Assembly (NCBI RefSeq): GCF_004010195.1
Contig: NC_057718.1
Span: forward strand, 5,151,051-5,171,050
Direction: 5' to 3'
DNA length: 20,000 nucleotides
Source of the DNA: Chiloscyllium plagiosum
Lineage: Eukaryota
Positions 3,358 to 16,936 of the stretch are shown here, piece after piece (the first letter of the stretch is position 1; the number at the start of each line of letters is the position of its first letter). A model generated the notes under the pieces. The model was not told the DNA's origin and did no database searches. It worked only from the letters and a program-made list of their open reading frames with translations. Position numbers and translations under genes: made by a program.

Positions 3358-3718
<361 letters not shown>

Positions 3719-9382: not shown

Positions 9383-9878
9383 CATAGAGTCATAGACATG
9401 CACAGCACAGAAACAGGCCCTTCAGTTCAACTCATCCATGCCGACCAGATATCCCAACCTAGTCCCATTTGCCAGCACTTGGCCCATATCCCTCTAAACC
9501 TTTCCTATTCATATACCCATCCAGATGTTGTAAATGTACCAGCCTCTACCACTTTCTCTGGCAGCTCTCTGGCAGCTCATTCCATACACACACACACTCT
9601 GCGTGAAAAAGTTGCCCTTTAGGTCCATTTTAAGTTTTTCCCCTCTCTCCCTAAACCTATGCTCCCTAGTTCTGGACTCCCCCACACCAGACAAAAGGAC
9701 CTTGTCCATTTACCCTCATGATTTTATAAACCTCTGTAAGGTCACCCCTCAGCCTCTGATGCTCCAGGGAAAAACAGTCCCAGCCTATTCAGCCTTTCCC
9801 TTCTTCTCAAGCTCTCCAGCCCTGGCAATGTCCTTGTAAACCTTTTCTGAACCCTTTCAAGTTTCACAACATCCTTCC
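9383..9878 (-). mobile_element. 5'-truncated CR1-clade LINE (HER1-like) 3' end
   Basis: Minus-strand ORFs give KDVVKLERVQKRFTRTLPGLE and GVGESRTREHRFRERGE (CR1 ORF2 C-terminus). The short tail repeat catagagtcataga is at 9383-9396. Same subfamily as 13230-13758. Confidence 0.93.
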
Positions 9879-10180
9879 AAAAGTTAACAAATTCAAATGA
9901 ACTGTAAACAGTATGTCTCTCCTGTAGAGTTCGTAACAAAGAAAAAGTCATTGATCCATGTTATACTTGTGGAGGTGCTAAATAACCCTATCTAGCTCTA
10001 AGGGCGAAATTTGGATCATGGTCAGAAGGGTAGAGCTAATTGATCATTTGAAATTGACTCCTTCATGACCAGAACTCCTCTCATCTTTGAAAAGCTTGAT
10101 ATATATCTGACACCATGCCACAATGTGCTAAGGGTTTAATACAACAGCCAGGTTGCAGACCTTAGTCTGGATCAATTTAG

Positions 10181-11649: not shown

Positions 11650-11745
11650 AGAAAGGTTGTAAGGAGAATTCGGGGAACTATAGACCTGTGAGTCTGACTT
11701 CGGTTGTGGGTAAATTATTGGAGGTGATTCTAAAAGATATGGACA

Positions 11746-11874
11746 TTTAGATTAAATTAGATTACATTACAGTGTGGAAACAGGCCCTTCGGCCCAACAA
11801 GTCCACACCGACCCGCCGAAGCACAACCCCTCTGGCGCTGTGAGGCAGCAGTGCTAACCACTGTGCTACCGTGG
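11746..11874 (-). mobile_element. Internally deleted tRNA-derived SINE (HE1-like) nested in the CR1 fragment
   Basis: The minus strand starts cacggtagcacagtggttagcactgctgcctcacagcgccaga (tRNA-like head with A box). It then jumps to a CR1-derived tail (ttgttgggccgaagggcctgtttccacactgtaa) ending in (TCTAA)-type repeats. Confidence 0.85.
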
Positions 11875-12330
11875 CAAAAATTGATTAAGGGTAGTCAGCG
11901 TGGTTTTGTACAAGGAAAATTGTTTCTCATAAACTTGACTGAGTTTTTTGAGGAAGTTACAAAAAAGATTGTTAATGGCAGGGTGGTGGATGGTGTTTAT
12001 TTGGATTTTAGTAAAGGCTTTGACAATGTTCTGCATTGTAGACTAATTAGTAAAGTTTGGTCACATAGGATTCAGGGTGAGTTTGCCAATTGAATACAAA
12101 ATTGGCTTAACATCAGGAGGCAGAGAGTAATGGCAGAGGGTTGCTTTTCAGACTGAGGGCCTGTGACCAGTAGTGTTCCACAGGGATCAGCTCTGGGTCC
12201 TCTTTTGTTTGTCATTTATTTAATGACTTGGATGAGAATACAGAAAGCATGATTAGTACATTTGCAGATGACACCAAAATTGGTGACAGAGTAGAGAGAG
12301 AAGAAGGTTTCCTAAGATTACAAAGGGATC

Positions 12331-13758
12331 ATGAGGTGCCACTATTTCAGAAGGATGGTAAGGACAAGCCAAGGAACTATAGACCGGTGAGCTTGATGGC
12401 AGTGGTGGACAAGTTGTTGGAGGGAATCCTGAGGAAGAGGAGGTACACTTATTTGGAAAGGCAAGGACGGATTAGGGATAATTAACATGACTTTGTGCAT
12501 GGGAAATCATGTCTCACAAACTGATTGAGTTTTTTGAAAAAGTAACAAAGAGGACTGATGACGGCAGAGCAGTAGATGTGATCTATATGGATATCAGTAA
12601 GGCTTTTGACAAGGTACTCCATGGGAGACTGGTGAGCAAGGTTAGATCTTATGGGATACAGGGAGAACTAGCCTCTTGGATACAAAACTGGCTCGAAGGT
12701 AGAAAAGAGAGGGTGGTGGTGAAGGGTTGTTTTTCAGACTTGTGGACAGTGGAGTGCCACAAGGATCGGTGCTGGGTCCACTACTTTTCTTCATTTATAT
12801 AAATGATTTGGATGTAAGCGTAAGAGGTATAGTTACTAAGTTTACAGTTGACATAAAAATTGTAGGTGTAGTGGACAGTGAAGAAGGTTACCTCAGATTG
12901 CAATGGGATCTTGATCAGATGGGCCATTGGGCTGAGGGGTGGCAGATGGAGTTTAATTCAGATAAATGCGAGGTGCTGCATTTTGGGAAAGCAAATCTTA
13001 GCAGGACTTATAGACTTAATGGTAAGATCCTAGGGAGTGTTGCTGAAAAAAGAGACTTTGAAGTGCAGGTTGATAGATCCTTGAAAGTGAAGTCTCAGGT
13101 AGATAGGATAGTGAAGAAGGCATTTGGTATGCTTGCCATTATTGTCAGTTCTTTGAGTATAGGATTGGGAGGTCACGTTGCAGCTGTACAGGACATTGGT
13201 TAGGCCACTATTGGCAGATTGTTCAATTCTCATCTCCCTGCTCTAGGAAGGGTGTCGTGAAACTTGAAAGGGTTCAGAAAAGATTTACAAGGATGTTGCC
13301 AGGATTGGAGGATTTGAGCTACAGGGAGATGTTGAATAAGCTGGGGCTGTTTTCCCTCGTGTATTGGAGGTTGAGGGGTCACCTTATAGAGGTTTACAAA
13401 ATCATGAGGGGTATGAATAGGATAAATACACAGTCCTTTCCCTGGGTGGGGGAGTCCAGAACCAGAGGGCATAGGTTTAGGGTGAGAGGGGAAAGATATA
13501 AAAAAGACCTAAGGGGCAACATTTTCACACAGAGGGTGATATGTGTATGGAATGAGCTGCCAGAGGAAGTGGTGAAGGCTGGTACAATTGCAACATTTAA
13601 AAGGCATCTGGATGAGTATGTGAATAGGAAGGGTGTAGAGGGATACGGGCCAAATGCTGGCAAATAGGACTAGATTAATTTAGGATATCTGATCAACATG
13701 GATGAGTTGTCCCGAAGAGTCTACTTCCATGCTGTATATCTCTATGACTCCATGACTG
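12331..13758 (+). mobile_element. 5'-truncated CR1-clade LINE (HER1-like): RT domain to 3' tail, inactivated
   Basis: Peptides VPLFQKDGKDKPRNYRPVSL, YMDISKAFDKV, SGVPQGSVLGPLLF, a degenerate catalytic motif (FTVD for FADD), [25 protein letters not shown] and FTQRVICVWNELP. Tail ctctatgactccatgact. Split over several frames. Confidence 0.96.
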
Positions 13759-14395: not shown

Positions 14396-14635
14396 TCTCT
14401 GACTGCTAGTGACATTGATGATGATGTGCCACTAAGGTGGGATGGTAAATTTCAATGGAGCAACTGGTGTTTTTCCATCCTTTTCTGTATAGCCGCTCTC
14501 TCACTCCCTCTGGCCTGTTGAAACTGATTTCTCTGTGGACCCTTCCCAAACTCCTGCCATAACAAGTTACCTGGTTTTAAGGTGGTGCCAACTGGAAAGC
14601 GCCCGATCAGATCAATTGGCACCCAAGAGCGCTGA

Positions 14636-14733
14636 AACAAAAACAGAAATTGCTGGAAAAACTCAGCAGGTCTGGCAACATCTGTGCAGAGAAATCAGAG
14701 TTAACATTTTGGGTTCAGTGACCATCCCTCAGA
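14636..14733 (-). mobile_element. Single-arm Penelope-terminus-like element with decayed hammerhead core and probable 15-bp TSD
   Basis: Homologous to the left arm of 16750-16936. The minus strand reads CTGAGGG-ATGGTCACTGAACCC-AAAATGTTAAC. Flanks are acccaagagcgctga (14621-14635) and acccaagggtgctga (14734-14748), 13/15 identical. Confidence 0.75.
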
Positions 14734-15094
14734 ACCCAAGGGTGCTGAGCTTCTTGATCATCTCCGCCATCCCTCCACTGCATTATTGCATCATCAGGCA
14801 GCACCAGAACTGTAACCATGTGGCCTGGGAGATGGCAATCATTGTGTTGGAGTCTTTGCCATACAGTAAGGATCTTTAAGCTGGAATGTCTCTGCACAAG
14901 GACAGTCTGGGTCAGTGAAAGTAGGCATTCTTCTCAACTTGAGCTCTCCAGACCAAAGGAGGCCATCATTTTAAGGATGGCCAACTCTCAACCAACAGAT
15001 TGTGTCTACCCGAGGTTGGACAGTACCCGAAACATCATATTTTGCTGAATCTCCATTCTTTTCAGGGACATTTTTAGCACATGATCTGGTCAAC

Positions 15095-15455: not shown

Positions 15456-16007
15456 AGCTCATATGCATGTGGAGTCAGGGTCTGTAGGATTCAAAGGAGG
15501 ATGCCCTCTCTCACCATCCTCTGTAAACAGGTACATTCAATACACCTATTGCTGTTCACTCACAACAATGTTAGTCTCAGATTACTACAGTTTTAACATA
15601 AAAGTGAAGGTCTTTCAGGGACTCACTTCAGTAGTTCATGGAAAACTGAACTTCTGTAATCAAACAGCAATTTCCAAAACCCCTAATCCTCTTCCTTGGC
15701 ACTGCACAACAATCTGCCAGATCTGGGAGAAGACTTCGTTCCACACAAATTTTTAAAATATTAATTACTTTACAGTCTGGATGTTTTGTCTGCAATGAGA
15801 AATTTGTTCAGGACTTGTTGCCTTTTGTTTCATTTGATTTTCTAATGAGAAACTGAGAATCCCTCAGTACCCAACGAACAATAATAATTTATATTTATGC
15901 AACACCTTCATTAAAACATTCATCTATGTGCTACTCATAAACATTACCAAAAAAAAATTACATTGTTCCACTTAAAGAGACAGTGGCAATTATAATCAAG
16001 ATCATGG

Positions 16008-16189
16008 GGAGAAAGTGAGGTCTGCAGATGCTGGAGATCAGAGCTGAAAATGTGTTGCTGGAAAAGCGCAGCAGGTCAGGTAGCATCCCCTCTTCTCCTG
16101 AAGAAGGGCTTATGCCCGAAACGTCGATTTTCCTGTTCCCTGGATGCTTCCTGACCTGCTGCGCTTTTCCAGCAACACATTTTCAGCTC
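16008..16189. mobile_element. Non-autonomous fold-back element (Penelope-terminus/retrozyme-like) with 15-bp TSD
   Basis: Inverted arms 16040-16088 and 16142-16190 (48/49 complementary). Exact direct repeat taatcaagatcatgg at 15993-16007 and 16190-16204. Hammerhead core in the spacer. Confidence 0.9.
16096..16128 (+). ncRNA. Minimal type I hammerhead ribozyme motif
   Basis: CTGAAGA (16098-16104), A, stem II GGGC-ttat-GCCC (16106-16117), then GAA-ACGT-C (16118-16125) with palindromic ACGU and a GUC cleavage triplet. Stem I is only ~2 bp in this copy. Confidence 0.7.
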
Positions 16190-16749
16190 TAATCAAGATC
16201 ATGGTTAATGAGGGAGGCATAAGACACAACAGAGTGGTGGAGAATGATAAAGAGCTCATTAGAATTCTGAGTGTATGTCTCAAGCAGAGGAAGATACAGT
16301 CACCAATGAAAAGTAGAGATACAGACTAGGATTACAGACAAGCTTTGATATTGGATTGTTCTAGGGCTATTACAGAGATAGAGAGGGGCAAGGCCATGGT
16401 AGCTTTGAAAGCAAGAATGAAGATGGATCTAAAAGCATTTTCTCTGAACACTAAATGATCCTGTTCAAACTTTGCATCTTTTTTGGATTACATGTGAGCC
16501 TATAGTTCCCTGTTGCTTTCTTGCTGGTGTTGTGCAAATTCATGAAATATTAATTCAAAACTTGGGTTCTAAAGTCAACTGAACCATGTGTCGCTTTATG
16601 TTTGATTTGTGTTTCTACGTTGTAGGAGTTAAAAAAGGAAGTTCTAATGCCAGGATGTCTTAAGTTTTGTTAATATTCTTCTAAATTCGATTTTTAAAAA
16701 GAAAATCTTCGAGCTGATTAGTCCAATGATTAAGCAACATATATAGAAG

Positions 16750-16936
16750 AAACAGAAGTTGCTAGAAAAACTCAGCAGGTCTGGCAGTGTCTGTGCAGAG
16801 AATTCAGAGTTAATGTTTTGGGTTTGAGGAAGGGTCACCAGATGTGAAACTTTAACTCTGACTTCTCTTCACAGATGCTGCCAGCCCTGCTGAACCTTTA
16901 CAGCAACTTCTGTTTTTGTTTCTGATTTACAGCATC
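16750..16936. mobile_element. Older fold-back element with decayed hammerhead core
   Basis: The left arm aaacagaagttgct..ctcagcaggtctggcagtgtctgtg..cagagttaa (16750-16813) is imperfectly complementary to ttaactctg..cacagatgctgccag..gcaacttctgttt (16852-16915). The spacer is TTGAGGA-AGGGTCACCAGATGT-GAAAC. Confidence 0.8.

What the first reader, a model, noticed from the sequence alone, without database searches (positions are those of the whole stretch)
15993..16204. 182-bp non-coding fold-back mobile element with an intact hammerhead core and an exact 15-bp target-site duplication
Seen: identical 15-mers (taatcaagatcatgg) flank a 182-bp insert. Inside, 49-bp arms pair with one mismatch, and the loop carries CUGAAGA-A-GGGC(UUAU)GCCC-GAA-ACGU-C. 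Known: minimal type I hammerheads with a palindromic loop-3 region that cleave as dimers occur in Penelope-like element (PLE) terminal repeats and in retrozymes, and PLE insertions often have inverted terminal segments. Inference: this is a young, protein-free, ribozyme-bearing element mobilised in trans. A clean 15-bp TSD suggests staggered-nick target-primed insertion. It is the best candidate here for an under-described system.
Basis: partly seen in the sequence, partly recalled or inferred. Interest (0 to 1): 0.72.

Follow-up and report, generated by a model that had tools for sequence, protein, structure and literature searches.

The report
Head-to-head Penelope retroelement end fragments
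The 182-bp hairpin is two short tail-end fragments of a very abundant Penelope-like retrotransposon, one of them carrying that family's usual minimal hammerhead motif, inserted head to head at one staggered break; it is an ordinary product of a known kind of element.

Summary

A contig from a differently labelled organism crosses the site with a single 15-mer and no insert. The insertion is therefore real and lineage-specific.

It is not a fold-back element that propagates as a unit. It is two non-coding copies of the 3' module of a Penelope-like element (PLE), joined head to head.
- The same module lies downstream of a GIY-YIG endonuclease reading frame in 26 of 30 PLE loci.
- The module has two discrete 3' ends 33 nt apart, matching the PLE "tail". 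The left arm uses the long end and the right arm the short end.
- The tail 34-mer occurs 69,741 times and the hammerhead 32-mer 71,071 times.
- 13 of 30 sampled copies are inverted pairs, each with its own central junction. Target duplications span 7-17 bp.

All of this matches published PLE hallmarks. Ribozyme activity is untested: Rfam finds no hammerhead and covariation is not significant. Interest is modest.

The parts
15993..16007 (.). Left copy of the 15-bp target-site duplication TAATCAAGATCATGG
   Evidence: A contig of organism B holds a single copy and no insert (record 17).
16008..16088 (-). Left arm: inverted, 5'-truncated copy of the PLE 3' module (reference positions 890-970 of the L059 module). 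It lacks the hammerhead and ends at the 'long' terminus.
   Evidence: BLAST to the module that follows a GIY-YIG frame in L059. The outer end GGAGAAAGTGAGG is precise in all 26 same-orientation relatives.
16008..16040 (-). 33-nt 'tail': the stretch between the two alternative 3' termini of the module
   Evidence: Arm 3' ends are bimodal at reference 928-943 and 968-970. The 34-mer 16008-16041 occurs 69,741 times at up to 1 mismatch, reversed control 0. A PLE tail of 30-40 bp is described.
16089..16095 (.). Private junction letters (CCTCTTC) between the two arms
   Evidence: Summed contig depth at 16089 is 165-229, against millions in the arms. Junctions differ among relatives.
16096..16189 (+). 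Right arm: sense copy of the module, from 2 nt upstream of the hammerhead core to the 'short' terminus
   Evidence: Piles of contigs whose likeness to the window starts at 16096 or at 16007/16008, with unrelated sequence before (table 7).
16098..16125 (+). Minimal type I hammerhead motif: CUGAAGA, extra A, helix II GGGC/GCCC with loop UUAU, GAA, palindromic ACGU, C17. The formal cleavage site is 3' of 16125.
   Evidence: Read. The same parse is found in relatives. Features match those listed by Cervera & de la Pena 2014. No Rfam hammerhead match.
16190..16204 (.). Right copy of the 15-bp target-site duplication

Best explanation
The insert is a by-product of Penelope-like element (PLE) retrotransposition. 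It is two short, non-coding copies of the element's 3' module, inserted head to head at one staggered double-strand break. It is not a self-contained fold-back element.

Shown:
- The module consists of the hammerhead followed by about 64 nt to a 'short' terminus or about 97 nt to a 'long' terminus.
- It is the last part of PLE copies that encode a GIY-YIG endonuclease.
- The right arm (16096-16189, + strand) is a module copy that starts 2 nt before the hammerhead core and ends at the short terminus.
- The left arm (16008-16088, - strand) is a 5'-truncated copy that ends at the long terminus and so carries the 33-nt tail.
- The site is empty in a related organism.

Inferred:
- A PLE protein made elsewhere (reverse transcriptase plus GIY-YIG endonuclease) nicked both strands 15 bp apart.
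- Each 3' end primed reverse transcription on a separate PLE-module RNA, starting internally at one of two adjacent start sites.
- The two cDNAs met with their 5' ends in the middle and were joined with a few private letters. Repair of the stagger gave the 15-bp duplication.

The hammerhead is a passenger in this copy. In the source element it would act, if at all, as a weak, dimer-forming and probably protein-assisted ribozyme, as published for other PLEs.
For: (1) Link to PLEs.
- An older copy of the module in L017 lies about 250 nt downstream of a frame that matches Pfam GIY-YIG: 24.6 bits against a cut-off of 22.6.
- That 163-aa frame has 135,852 first-look candidates in the genome, 150 scored, 151 matches.
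- In 26 of 30 such loci the module lies on the same strand 88-330 nt downstream. One of the 30 is the query's own place. L041, L046, L050 and L055 do not fit.
- In L059 the downstream module is 94.9% identical over 138 nt to the young family and ends at ...CACTTTCTCC.
- L057 has one 546-aa frame with a weak RVT_1 match (20.9 bits, below the cut-off of 29.6) that runs into the endonuclease part.

(2) Two termini 33 nt apart. Arm 3' ends fall at reference 928-943 or 968-970 in 63 of 66 similarity-selected arms and 48 of 52 positionally sampled arms. Single copies flanked by their own target duplication use either end (L021 short; L075 and L086 long).

(3) Recurrent pairs, not one family. Thirty tail-bearing copies were taken in the order they lie on contig C1.
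- 13 are inverted pairs, 15 are unpaired and 2 loci are one complex cluster.
- All 13 junctions differ.
- The partner's outer end is the short terminus in 11 of 13, the long one in 1, and unclear in 1.

(4) Target duplications. The script found them in 21 of 30 rows of the first set, 6-15 bp, window included. It found them in 9 of 13 pairs and 8 of 14 monomers of the second set, 7-17 bp.

(5) Separately templated arms. A rare T variant (162 exact 32-mers genome-wide) is always paired with G in the other arm. This holds in 13 pairs of the selected set (two of them one duplicated locus) and in 4 of 4 pairs in a positional sample of 12 T sites. No T/T pair was seen.

(6) Empty orthologous site.

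(7) Published properties of PLEs.
- Insertions are highly 5'-truncated, often have an adjacent inverted 5'-truncated copy, and often carry a 30-40 bp tail at one end only (Craig et al. 2021, passages).
- A purified PLE protein nicks and extends both strands and starts reverse transcription at two adjacent internal sites, which delimit the tail (Frangieh et al. 2024, main text).
Against: - No RNA evidence. The one raw RNA run laid gave 0 reads, which is no test.
- Priming on both strands is inferred from the anatomy and from another species' enzyme in vitro. It was not observed here.
- Arms of a pair are more alike than arms of different pairs: 0.030 against 0.038 differences per site, 0 of 5000 permutations as low. 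Several pairs have mirrored rare variants. Two random RNAs do not predict this by themselves.
- The window's two arms both differ from the family majority at the same site (sense T and A against G). That is an unexplained coincidence.
- Four of 30 endonuclease loci lack the module in the expected place.
- Parts of the PLE loci read N, so the full element, its 5' end and its reverse transcriptase clade were not examined.
- The first set of 30 relatives was chosen by likeness to the window copy and is biased towards its architecture.
Confidence: 0.85

Rival explanations
1. The 182-bp fold-back is itself a non-autonomous mobile element: it is transcribed as a hairpin RNA with a hammerhead in its loop and copied as a unit by a PLE enzyme in trans.
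For: - The own-genome search with the 182 bp gave 1791 first-look candidates, and the best 30 share the overall architecture.
- In that set the rare T variant sits in the hammerhead-bearing arm in 14 of 14 relatives, with G in the partner wherever the site is covered. This could look like descent from one asymmetric hairpin.
Against: - That set was selected by likeness to the query.
- In a positional sample of the same T variant, only 5 of 12 sites are inverted pairs. Five are long PLE 3' ends, 1 is a monomer and 1 is a partial head-to-tail copy. In one pair (L095) the T arm is the truncated one.
- The junction is private to the window copy (depth 165-229 at 16089), and junctions differ in 13 of 13 positional pairs.
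- Outer-end combinations vary: long/short, long/long (L010, L069) and short/short (L102).
- Mirrored markers such as an extra A in both arms of L008, L010, L017, L019 and L030 cut across the T lineage.
Confidence: 0.06
2. Copy-back. A single cDNA was made, folded back on itself, and served as template for the second arm (hairpin-primed second-strand synthesis).
For: - Some junctions lie inside the self-complementary helix II sequence, for example L078 and L068.
- Arms of a pair are more alike than random.
Against: - Copy-back predicts complementary arms. Yet T arms have G partners in all 17 pairs where both arms cover the site, and none is T/T.
- In the window and most relatives the truncated arm carries 33 nt of tail that the other arm lacks, so it cannot have been copied from that arm.
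Confidence: 0.04
3. The roughly 100-130-nt hammerhead module is a dedicated non-autonomous element, a SINE-like or retrozyme-like 'mini-PLE' with its own transcripts, and not a fragment of full PLE RNA. The window holds two such units. This concerns the source of the template and is compatible with the anatomy given above.
For: - Arm 5' ends are not spread as random truncation predicts. They pile up 2-6 nt upstream of C3: reference 839-856 in 19-20 of 30 positional copies. The same boundary shows as a pile of contigs whose likeness starts at 16096.
- Copy number is very high.
- Li et al. 2026 (Results section read) derive vertebrate non-LTR retrozymes from PLE terminal repeats. They found such retrozymes in the one cartilaginous fish they sampled.
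Against: - No head-to-tail arrays. Among 100 exact hammerhead 32-mers on contig C1 there are 0 same-strand neighbours within 400 nt, against 5 opposite-strand pairs. One partial head-to-tail copy was seen in 12 (L094).
- The same module, with the same rare variant, continues upstream into PLE 3' untranslated sequence in 5 of 12 sites.
- The pile of 5' ends is equally explained if the PLE RNA starts there and reverse transcription sometimes begins at the 5'-proximal copy of the start site.
- No RNA data.
Confidence: 0.3

Closest known systems
Insertions of endonuclease-bearing Penelope-like elements (Penelope/Poseidon, Neptune clades), as described by Craig et al. 2021 (PMC8557442, passages read) and Frangieh et al. 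2024 (PMC11167929, main text read)
   Same: High 5' truncation; an inverted 5'-truncated copy directly adjacent; an optional 30-40 bp tail at one end only (33 nt here); a hammerhead in the terminal repeat; target duplications of variable length; a GIY-YIG endonuclease frame upstream of the module in the same genome.
   Different: Here both copies are truncated to about 80-95 nt, so nothing coding is left and the whole insert folds as a hairpin. The clade of the shark element's reverse transcriptase was not determined, because parts of the loci read N.
Minimal hammerhead ribozymes of metazoan PLEs (Cervera & de la Pena 2014, PMC4209133, main text read)
   Same: CUGANGA and GAA boxes; one extra nucleotide between A9 and G10.1; a G10.1-C11.1 pair; no helix III but a palindromic 15.2-16.2 (ACGU), so a dimer is needed; a short helix I. 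That paper also reports thousands of solo motifs per genome and dual motifs on opposite strands 100-700 bp apart.
   Different: Helix II is 4 bp here, against 7-8 bp in the Schistosoma families. Helix I next to the core is only 2 bp in the window copy. Activity is unknown, and the published ones cleave poorly in vitro.
Non-LTR retrozymes of animals (Cervera & de la Pena 2020, PMC7229834, search listing and abstract only; Li et al. 2026 preprint 10.64898/2026.07.22.740005, abstract and Results read)
   Same: Small non-coding type I hammerhead-bearing repeats related to PLE terminal repeats, with dispersed monomers.
   Different: Retrozymes are head-to-tail tandem arrays that yield circular RNA. 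Here tandem neighbours were 0 of 100 and the copies are solo or head to head.
Twin priming of LINE-1
   Same: Both ends of a staggered break prime reverse transcription, giving an inverted 5' part flanked by one target duplication.
   Different: Twin priming inverts a different, upstream part of one RNA. Here both arms are copies of the same 3' module, each starting at a defined internal start site.
MITEs and fold-back DNA transposons
   Same: A short, non-coding hairpin-forming insert flanked by a direct repeat.
   Different: Target duplications in the family vary from 7 to 17 bp. The arms are of unequal extent. Single-arm copies with their own duplications are common. The sequence is the 3' end of a retroelement.

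Membership tests
Hammerhead ribozyme, minimal type I form of PLEs | Core boxes C3-U4-G5-A6-N7-G8-A9 and G12-A13-A14 | tested here: met
   CUGAAGA at 16098-16104 and GAA at 16118-16120. Among 60 parsed relatives of 67 found, 52 have an exact CTGANGA and 46 an exact GAAA.
Hammerhead ribozyme, minimal type I form of PLEs | A15.1-U16.1 pair, cleavage-site nucleotide 17 not G, palindromic 15.2-16.2 so that two motifs can build helix III | tested here: met
   ACGU-C at 16121-16125. CGTC follows GAAA in 28 of 60 relatives; most other forms are CpG-decay variants. A-U is kept in 54 of 60 and C-G in 35 of 60.
Hammerhead ribozyme, minimal type I form of PLEs | Helix II with a G10.1-C11.1 pair, and one unpaired nucleotide between A9 and G10.1 | tested here: met
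   A16105, then GGGC/GCCC. The extra A is present in 59 of 60 and helix II has 4 bp or more in 40 of 60. Other PLE families of the genome carry GGGU..ACCC, GGGU-UAC-ACCU and a 6-bp GGGUCA..UGACCC.
Hammerhead ribozyme, minimal type I form of PLEs | Helix I of about 4-6 bp | tested here: inconclusive
   Window copy: G-C and A-U next to the core, then mismatches; further out the long arms pair. Family in PLE context: G-C, A-U, U.U, U-A. The third pair is unpaired in 45 of 60. In the predicted fold of this copy GAAGA of the core pairs with an upstream UCUUC.
Hammerhead ribozyme, minimal type I form of PLEs | Covariation supporting the helices | tested here: inconclusive
   60 segments, 10 pairs: 80.1% of cells paired against a shuffled mean of 80.2 (334 of 500 shuffles as high). 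Three pairs have double changes (295 of 500 as high). Slid controls give 15.6-46.0% paired, but the structure was derived from these sequences.
Hammerhead ribozyme, minimal type I form of PLEs | Match to a curated hammerhead model | tested here: not met
   Rfam 15: 0 matches at gathering score in the window. At E up to 10 on 15900-16300, 8 matches, none a hammerhead; the best are generic miRNA-hairpin models far below their cut-offs. The Rfam models expect a helix III, which minimal PLE motifs lack.
Hammerhead ribozyme, minimal type I form of PLEs | Self-cleavage | not testable with these tools
The raw RNA run gave 0 reads.
Penelope-like element insertion | Sequence continuity with an element that encodes a reverse transcriptase and a GIY-YIG endonuclease | tested here: met
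   Pfam GIY-YIG 24.6 bits against a cut-off of 22.6. The module is downstream on the same strand in 26 of 30 loci. L059 is 94.9% identical over 138 nt. In L057 a weak RVT_1 match (20.9 bits, below the cut-off) lies in the same frame. The reverse transcriptase clade was not tested.
Penelope-like element insertion | Optional 30-40 bp tail, often at one end only | tested here: met
   Two termini 33 nt apart. In the window the tail (16008-16040) is on the left arm only.
Penelope-like element insertion | 5' truncation with an adjacent inverted 5'-truncated copy | tested here: met
   Window arms cover reference 890-970 (inverted) and 844-937. 13 of 30 positional copies are such pairs.
Non-LTR retrozyme | Head-to-tail tandem repeats, each with a hammerhead | tested here: not met
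   0 same-strand neighbours within 400 nt among 100 exact hammerhead 32-mers. This list covers only the first 8.5 Mb of contig C1 and exact matches only.
MITE / DNA-transposon fold-back | Terminal inverted repeats and a target duplication of fixed length | tested here: not met
   Duplications are 6-17 bp. The outer ends of the two arms differ by 33 nt. Single-arm copies exist.
miRNA precursor (weak Rfam hits MIR2118, mir-335) | Score at or above the family's gathering cut-off | tested here: not met
   32.8 against 85 bits and 28.2 against 64 bits. These are generic long-hairpin matches.

The most novel reading that the evidence does not exclude
The shark genome may hold a natural, genome-scale record of how PLEs integrate. 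On this reading the tens of thousands of 100-130-nt units are 'strong-stop-like' cDNAs of an R-like leader of PLE RNA: the RNA 5' end lies just before the hammerhead, and reverse transcription starts at one of two internal sites. Nearly half of the insertions would then be head-to-head pairs because both nicked strands prime on two separate RNAs in vivo. So far this has been shown only in vitro, for one lizard element. A secondary lead is that truncated arms tend to start within about 15 nt of the hammerhead cut site, which would be a trace of cleavage in vivo.
Probability: 0.35. Interest if true: 0.55.

Novelty: new member of a known kind. Interest (0 to 1): 0.3.

Why it matters
For this window it matters little. 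The feature is one of roughly 70,000 copies of a PLE end module and should be annotated as a repeat (PLE fragment, inverted pair), not as a new system or a gene.

It matters somewhat for PLE biology. Such abundant, young, very short insertions, with sharp termini and intact target duplications, are convenient material. They allow in vivo tests of claims made from one in vitro system: two internal start sites, priming on both strands, and use of uncleaved RNA. They also bear on what the hammerhead does in these elements.

It is also a practical warning. Hairpins of this kind give spurious miRNA-precursor matches.

Tried and rejected
- Rfam: no hammerhead match. The miRNA-like hits are generic hairpin matches far below their cut-offs.
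- Pfam GIY-YIG run directly over the genome: one marginal hit, useless. The endonuclease was found instead by walking upstream from an older module copy.
- Earlier findings of the scan, searched by sequence: nothing.
- RNA evidence: no RNA holder was listed for the stretch. The raw single-cell poly(A) RNA run X22 gave 0 reads, which is no test.
- Covariation test on 60 hammerhead segments: not significant, so I do not use it as support.
- I dropped it after a positional sample showed the variant in long PLE ends, a monomer and a truncated arm as well.
- The idea that truncated arms start at the hammerhead cut site: starts lie at reference 868-892 in the similarity-selected set, which is biased towards the query's architecture, and only a few do so in the positional set. 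I keep it as a lead only.
- The reading frame from the ATG in loop II (read) stops after 28 codons, and the older family has TTTT in place of TTAT. It is not an ORF start.
- I made no structure or complex predictions, since the feature is non-coding.
- Literature searches listed no paper specifically on PLE hammerheads in sharks. Only the top 10-15 hits of each search were looked at, so I make no claim that it is unpublished. Supplements of the papers read were not opened, including the species tables of Li et al. and the supplementary figures of Cervera & de la Pena. They may list cartilaginous-fish motifs.
Full report
**The observation**

TAATCAAGATCATGG stands at 15993-16007 and at 16190-16204, around a 182-bp insert (16008-16189).

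The repeat finder gives inverted arms 16036-16088 / 16142-16194, 53 nt and 96% complementary. The outer 5 nt of that match run into the right-hand 15-mer by chance likeness. The arms proper are therefore about 48-49 nt with one T.T mismatch (16081/16149).

As RNA the insert folds into one long hairpin: -114.2 kcal/mol, z = -13.4, and 0 of 200 shuffles as stable.

The hammerhead letters are all there:
- CUGAAGA at 16098-16104
- an extra A at 16105
- GGGC-UUAU-GCCC at 16106-16117
- GAA at 16118-16120
- ACGU at 16121-16124
- C17 at 16125

It is the only such motif in the window on either strand.

**The decisive test for an insertion**

I laid public contigs on 15800-16400.
- In run X9 (label 'organism B', different from the window's 'organism A') one 545-nt contig aligns to 15800-15992. 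It then continues without a break (record positions 457 to 458) at 16190-16277. There are 10 other letters and 5 gaps over the 281 aligned bases. This is an empty site with a single 15-mer.
- In organism A the insert is present in two samples from two studies. An X5 contig runs from 15800 to 16029, and an X1 contig from 16169 to 16400.

The insertion is therefore real and happened after the two organisms' lineages split, unless it was lost precisely, which is unlikely.

The window copy differs from the family's majority at 16130 and 16149 (table 3), and at 16081 judged from the alignment. That is about 3 differences in 170 alignable bases, which fits a fairly recent event.

**What the insert is made of**

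The own-genome search with the 182 bp gave 1791 first-look candidates, 40 scored. An alignment of 30 loci showed three things:
- One end (GGAGAAAGTGAGG...) is precise in all 26 same-orientation copies.
- The other end (...TTTTCAGCTC) varies by a few bases.
- The middle differs in almost every copy.

The flanks of those loci held non-hairpin copies:
- L023:12-138 runs from the hammerhead to ...CACTTTCTCC.
- L021:1364-1452 runs from CTGAAGA to TTTTCAG, between its own target duplication.
- L011:820-907 does likewise.

So the unit is the hammerhead plus about 64 nt (short end) or about 97 nt (long end). The window holds two units head to head.
- The right arm (16096-16189, +) starts 2 nt before C3 and ends at the short end.
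- The left arm (16008-16088, -) is truncated before the hammerhead and ends at the long end.
- The 33 nt at 16008-16040 are the difference between the two ends.

**Link to a coding element**

Upstream of an older copy of the unit in L017 lies a frame reading ...CSRCGLLYIGETGHLLAERFREH.... It matches Pfam GIY-YIG above the curated cut-off, 24.6 against 22.6 bits.

Searching the genome with that 163-aa frame gave 135,852 first-look candidates, 150 scored. In 26 of the 30 loci returned, the unit lies on the same strand 88-330 nt downstream of the endonuclease match. One of the 30 is the query's own place. L041, L046, L050 and L055 do not fit.

In L059 the frame ends, about 230 nt of untranslated sequence follow, and then comes the unit. 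It is 94.9% identical over 138 nt to the young family and ends at the long end.

In L057 a 546-aa open frame has a weak reverse-transcriptase match (RVT_1, 20.9 bits, below the cut-off of 29.6) and runs into the endonuclease part.

A retroelement frame with a C-terminal GIY-YIG endonuclease is the architecture of Penelope-like elements, as stated in the passages of Craig et al. 2021 read. Parts of several loci read N, so I did not examine the whole element.

**Abundance and population structure**

- The tail 34-mer (16008-16041) occurs 69,741 times at up to 1 mismatch. The hammerhead 32-mer (16098-16129) occurs 71,071 times. Reversed controls give 0 for both.
- I took 30 tail-bearing copies in the order they lie on contig C1. 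Thirteen are inverted pairs, 15 are unpaired (14 short monomers and one longer PLE end), and 2 loci are one complex cluster.
- All 13 central junctions differ.
- The partner arm ends at the short terminus in 11 of 13, at the long one in 1, and next to N in 1.
- Arm 3' ends are bimodal at reference 928-943 and 968-970: 63 of 66 selected arms and 48 of 52 positional arms.
- Arm 5' ends pile up 2-6 nt before C3: reference 839-856 in 19-20 of 30. The same boundary shows as a pile of contigs whose likeness to the window starts at 16096.
- My script found target duplications in 21 of 30 rows of the first set, 6-15 bp. Three of the 9 failures were rows aligned in the opposite orientation, where the script's boundaries were wrong.
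- It found them in 9 of 13 pairs and 8 of 14 monomers of the second set, 7-17 bp.
- Among 100 exact hammerhead 32-mers in the first 8.5 Mb of C1, 10 have their own exact tail and 5 pairs lie on opposite strands 37-185 nt apart. None has a same-strand neighbour within 400 nt.
- Summed contig depth at the window's junction (16089) is 165-229, against millions in the arms.

The hairpin as such is therefore not what multiplies. It is made anew at insertions.

**How the pair was made**

Two published facts fit the anatomy point by point.
- Craig et al. 2021 (passages) describe PLE insertions as highly 5'-truncated. They often have an inverted 5'-truncated copy directly adjacent, and a 30-40 bp tail that is often present at one end only.
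- Frangieh et al. 2024 (main text) show that a purified PLE protein nicks and extends both strands. Reverse transcription starts at two adjacent internal sites, with the tail being the sequence between them. Uncleaved RNA is the main template.

I therefore infer two priming events, one at each nick of a 15-bp stagger. One started at the short site and one at the long site.

One observation of my own speaks against the alternative that the second arm is copied back from the first. A rare T variant at the position of 16149 has 162 exact 32-mers genome-wide. It is paired with G in the other arm in all 13 such pairs of the first set, two of which are one duplicated locus. The same holds in 4 of 4 pairs among 12 positionally sampled T sites. 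No T/T pair was seen.

The truncated arm also carries tail sequence that the other arm lacks. It cannot be a copy of that arm.

Two things remain unreconciled:
- Arms of a pair are more alike than arms of different pairs (0.030 against 0.038 differences per site, 0 of 5000 permutations as low), with some mirrored rare variants.
- The window's two arms both deviate from the majority at the same site (sense T and A against G).

Co-active subfamilies, or two modules of one RNA, could account for these. I cannot tell which.

**The hammerhead**

The motif shows each feature that Cervera & de la Pena 2014 (main text) list for minimal PLE hammerheads:
- the two core boxes
- one nucleotide between A9 and G10.1
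- a G10.1-C11.1 pair
- no helix III, but a palindromic 15.2-16.2
- a short helix I

They also report thousands of solo motifs per genome, dual motifs on opposite strands, and only weak cleavage, as dimers, in vitro.

In this genome 60 of 67 module copies could be parsed:
- 52 of 60 have an exact CTGANGA.
- 46 of 60 have an exact GAAA.
- 59 of 60 have the extra A.
- 40 of 60 have a helix II of 4 bp or more.

The two main families differ in the core region only at N7 and in loop II (CTGATGA...TTTT against CTGAAGA...TTAT). More distant families keep helix II with other letters: GGGU..ACCC, GGGU-UAC-ACCU, and a 6-bp GGGUCA..UGACCC.

A formal count is nevertheless not significant. 80.1% of cells are paired against a shuffled mean of 80.2. 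Three pairs have double changes, a value reached in 295 of 500 shuffles.

No Rfam hammerhead model matches.

Helix I beside the core is 2 bp in the window copy. In its predicted fold part of the core pairs with an upstream UCUUC.

I conclude that this is a bona fide member of the PLE minimal-hammerhead class by sequence. Its activity is unknown, and in this copy it is a passenger.

**Surroundings**

The flanks are single-copy: contig depth is about 3-45 across the flank bins, against millions in the arms. They hold no recognisable reading frame. Ten frames of 110 aa or more in the window were scanned, and only two, at 11.7-13.2 kb, match a reverse transcriptase.

The window holds further copies of a second PLE end-module family:
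- a decayed solo copy at 14634-14735 (-)
- another head-to-head pair at 16750-16936
- partial matches inside a 112-bp tandem duplication at 3358-3581

**Verdict**

It is wrong in taking the hairpin for a mobile element of its own and for something under-described.

It is a new member of a known kind. The main residual interest is that this genome's tens of thousands of short, sharp-ended PLE insertions could serve to test the proposed PLE integration mechanism in vivo.

Noticed in passing
window 16750-16936: A second head-to-head pair, from a different PLE end-module family. Its arms are 16750-16818 / 16847-16915, 84% complementary. The right arm carries a decayed hammerhead (TGAGGAAGGGTCACC...GTGAAAC) and extends about 20 nt further out than the left arm. 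It matches the L026:783-895 type at 87.5%.
   Followed up: partly
window 14634-14735 (-): A solo, decayed copy of that second module family, 89% identical to L026:783-895. On the minus strand it reads CTGAGGGATGGTCACTGAACCCAAAATGTTAACTCTG....
   Followed up: partly
window 3358-3581: Two tandem 112-bp units, 96% alike, each holding a 45-nt stretch 82% like the second module family (3374-3418 and 3486-3530). This is the only head-to-tail arrangement of PLE-module-like sequence seen in the window. No hammerhead core is recognisable.
   Followed up: no
window 11650-13200 (+): Degraded retrotransposon reverse-transcriptase frames: RVT_1 at 34.1 bits for 12703-13200 and 17.3 bits for 11761-12090. 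There is an internal 82-nt repeat at 11650/12349, and long inverted repeats link 9383-9883 with 13241-13754.
   Followed up: no
window 16081 and 16149: The only mismatch between the arms lies at the one site where both arms differ from the family majority (sense A and T against G). The T variant is rare: 162 exact 32-mers in the genome.
   Followed up: partly
L062-L091, right flanks: After ...CACTTTCTCC many copies read TC or TCA before the target duplication begins. The long terminus may therefore lie 2-3 nt further out than in the window copy, or untemplated letters are added.
   Followed up: no
L094 (G000:C1:88028707-88029087): A partial head-to-tail arrangement of the module: reference 855-892 directly followed by 842-936 on the same strand. 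It is the only tandem form seen among 12 sampled sites.
   Followed up: no
window 16034-16197: The hairpin gives weak matches to miRNA-precursor models: MIR2118 at 32.8 bits against a cut-off of 85, and mir-335 at 28.2 against 64. With tens of thousands of such hairpins in the genome, this is a likely source of false miRNA predictions.
   Followed up: no
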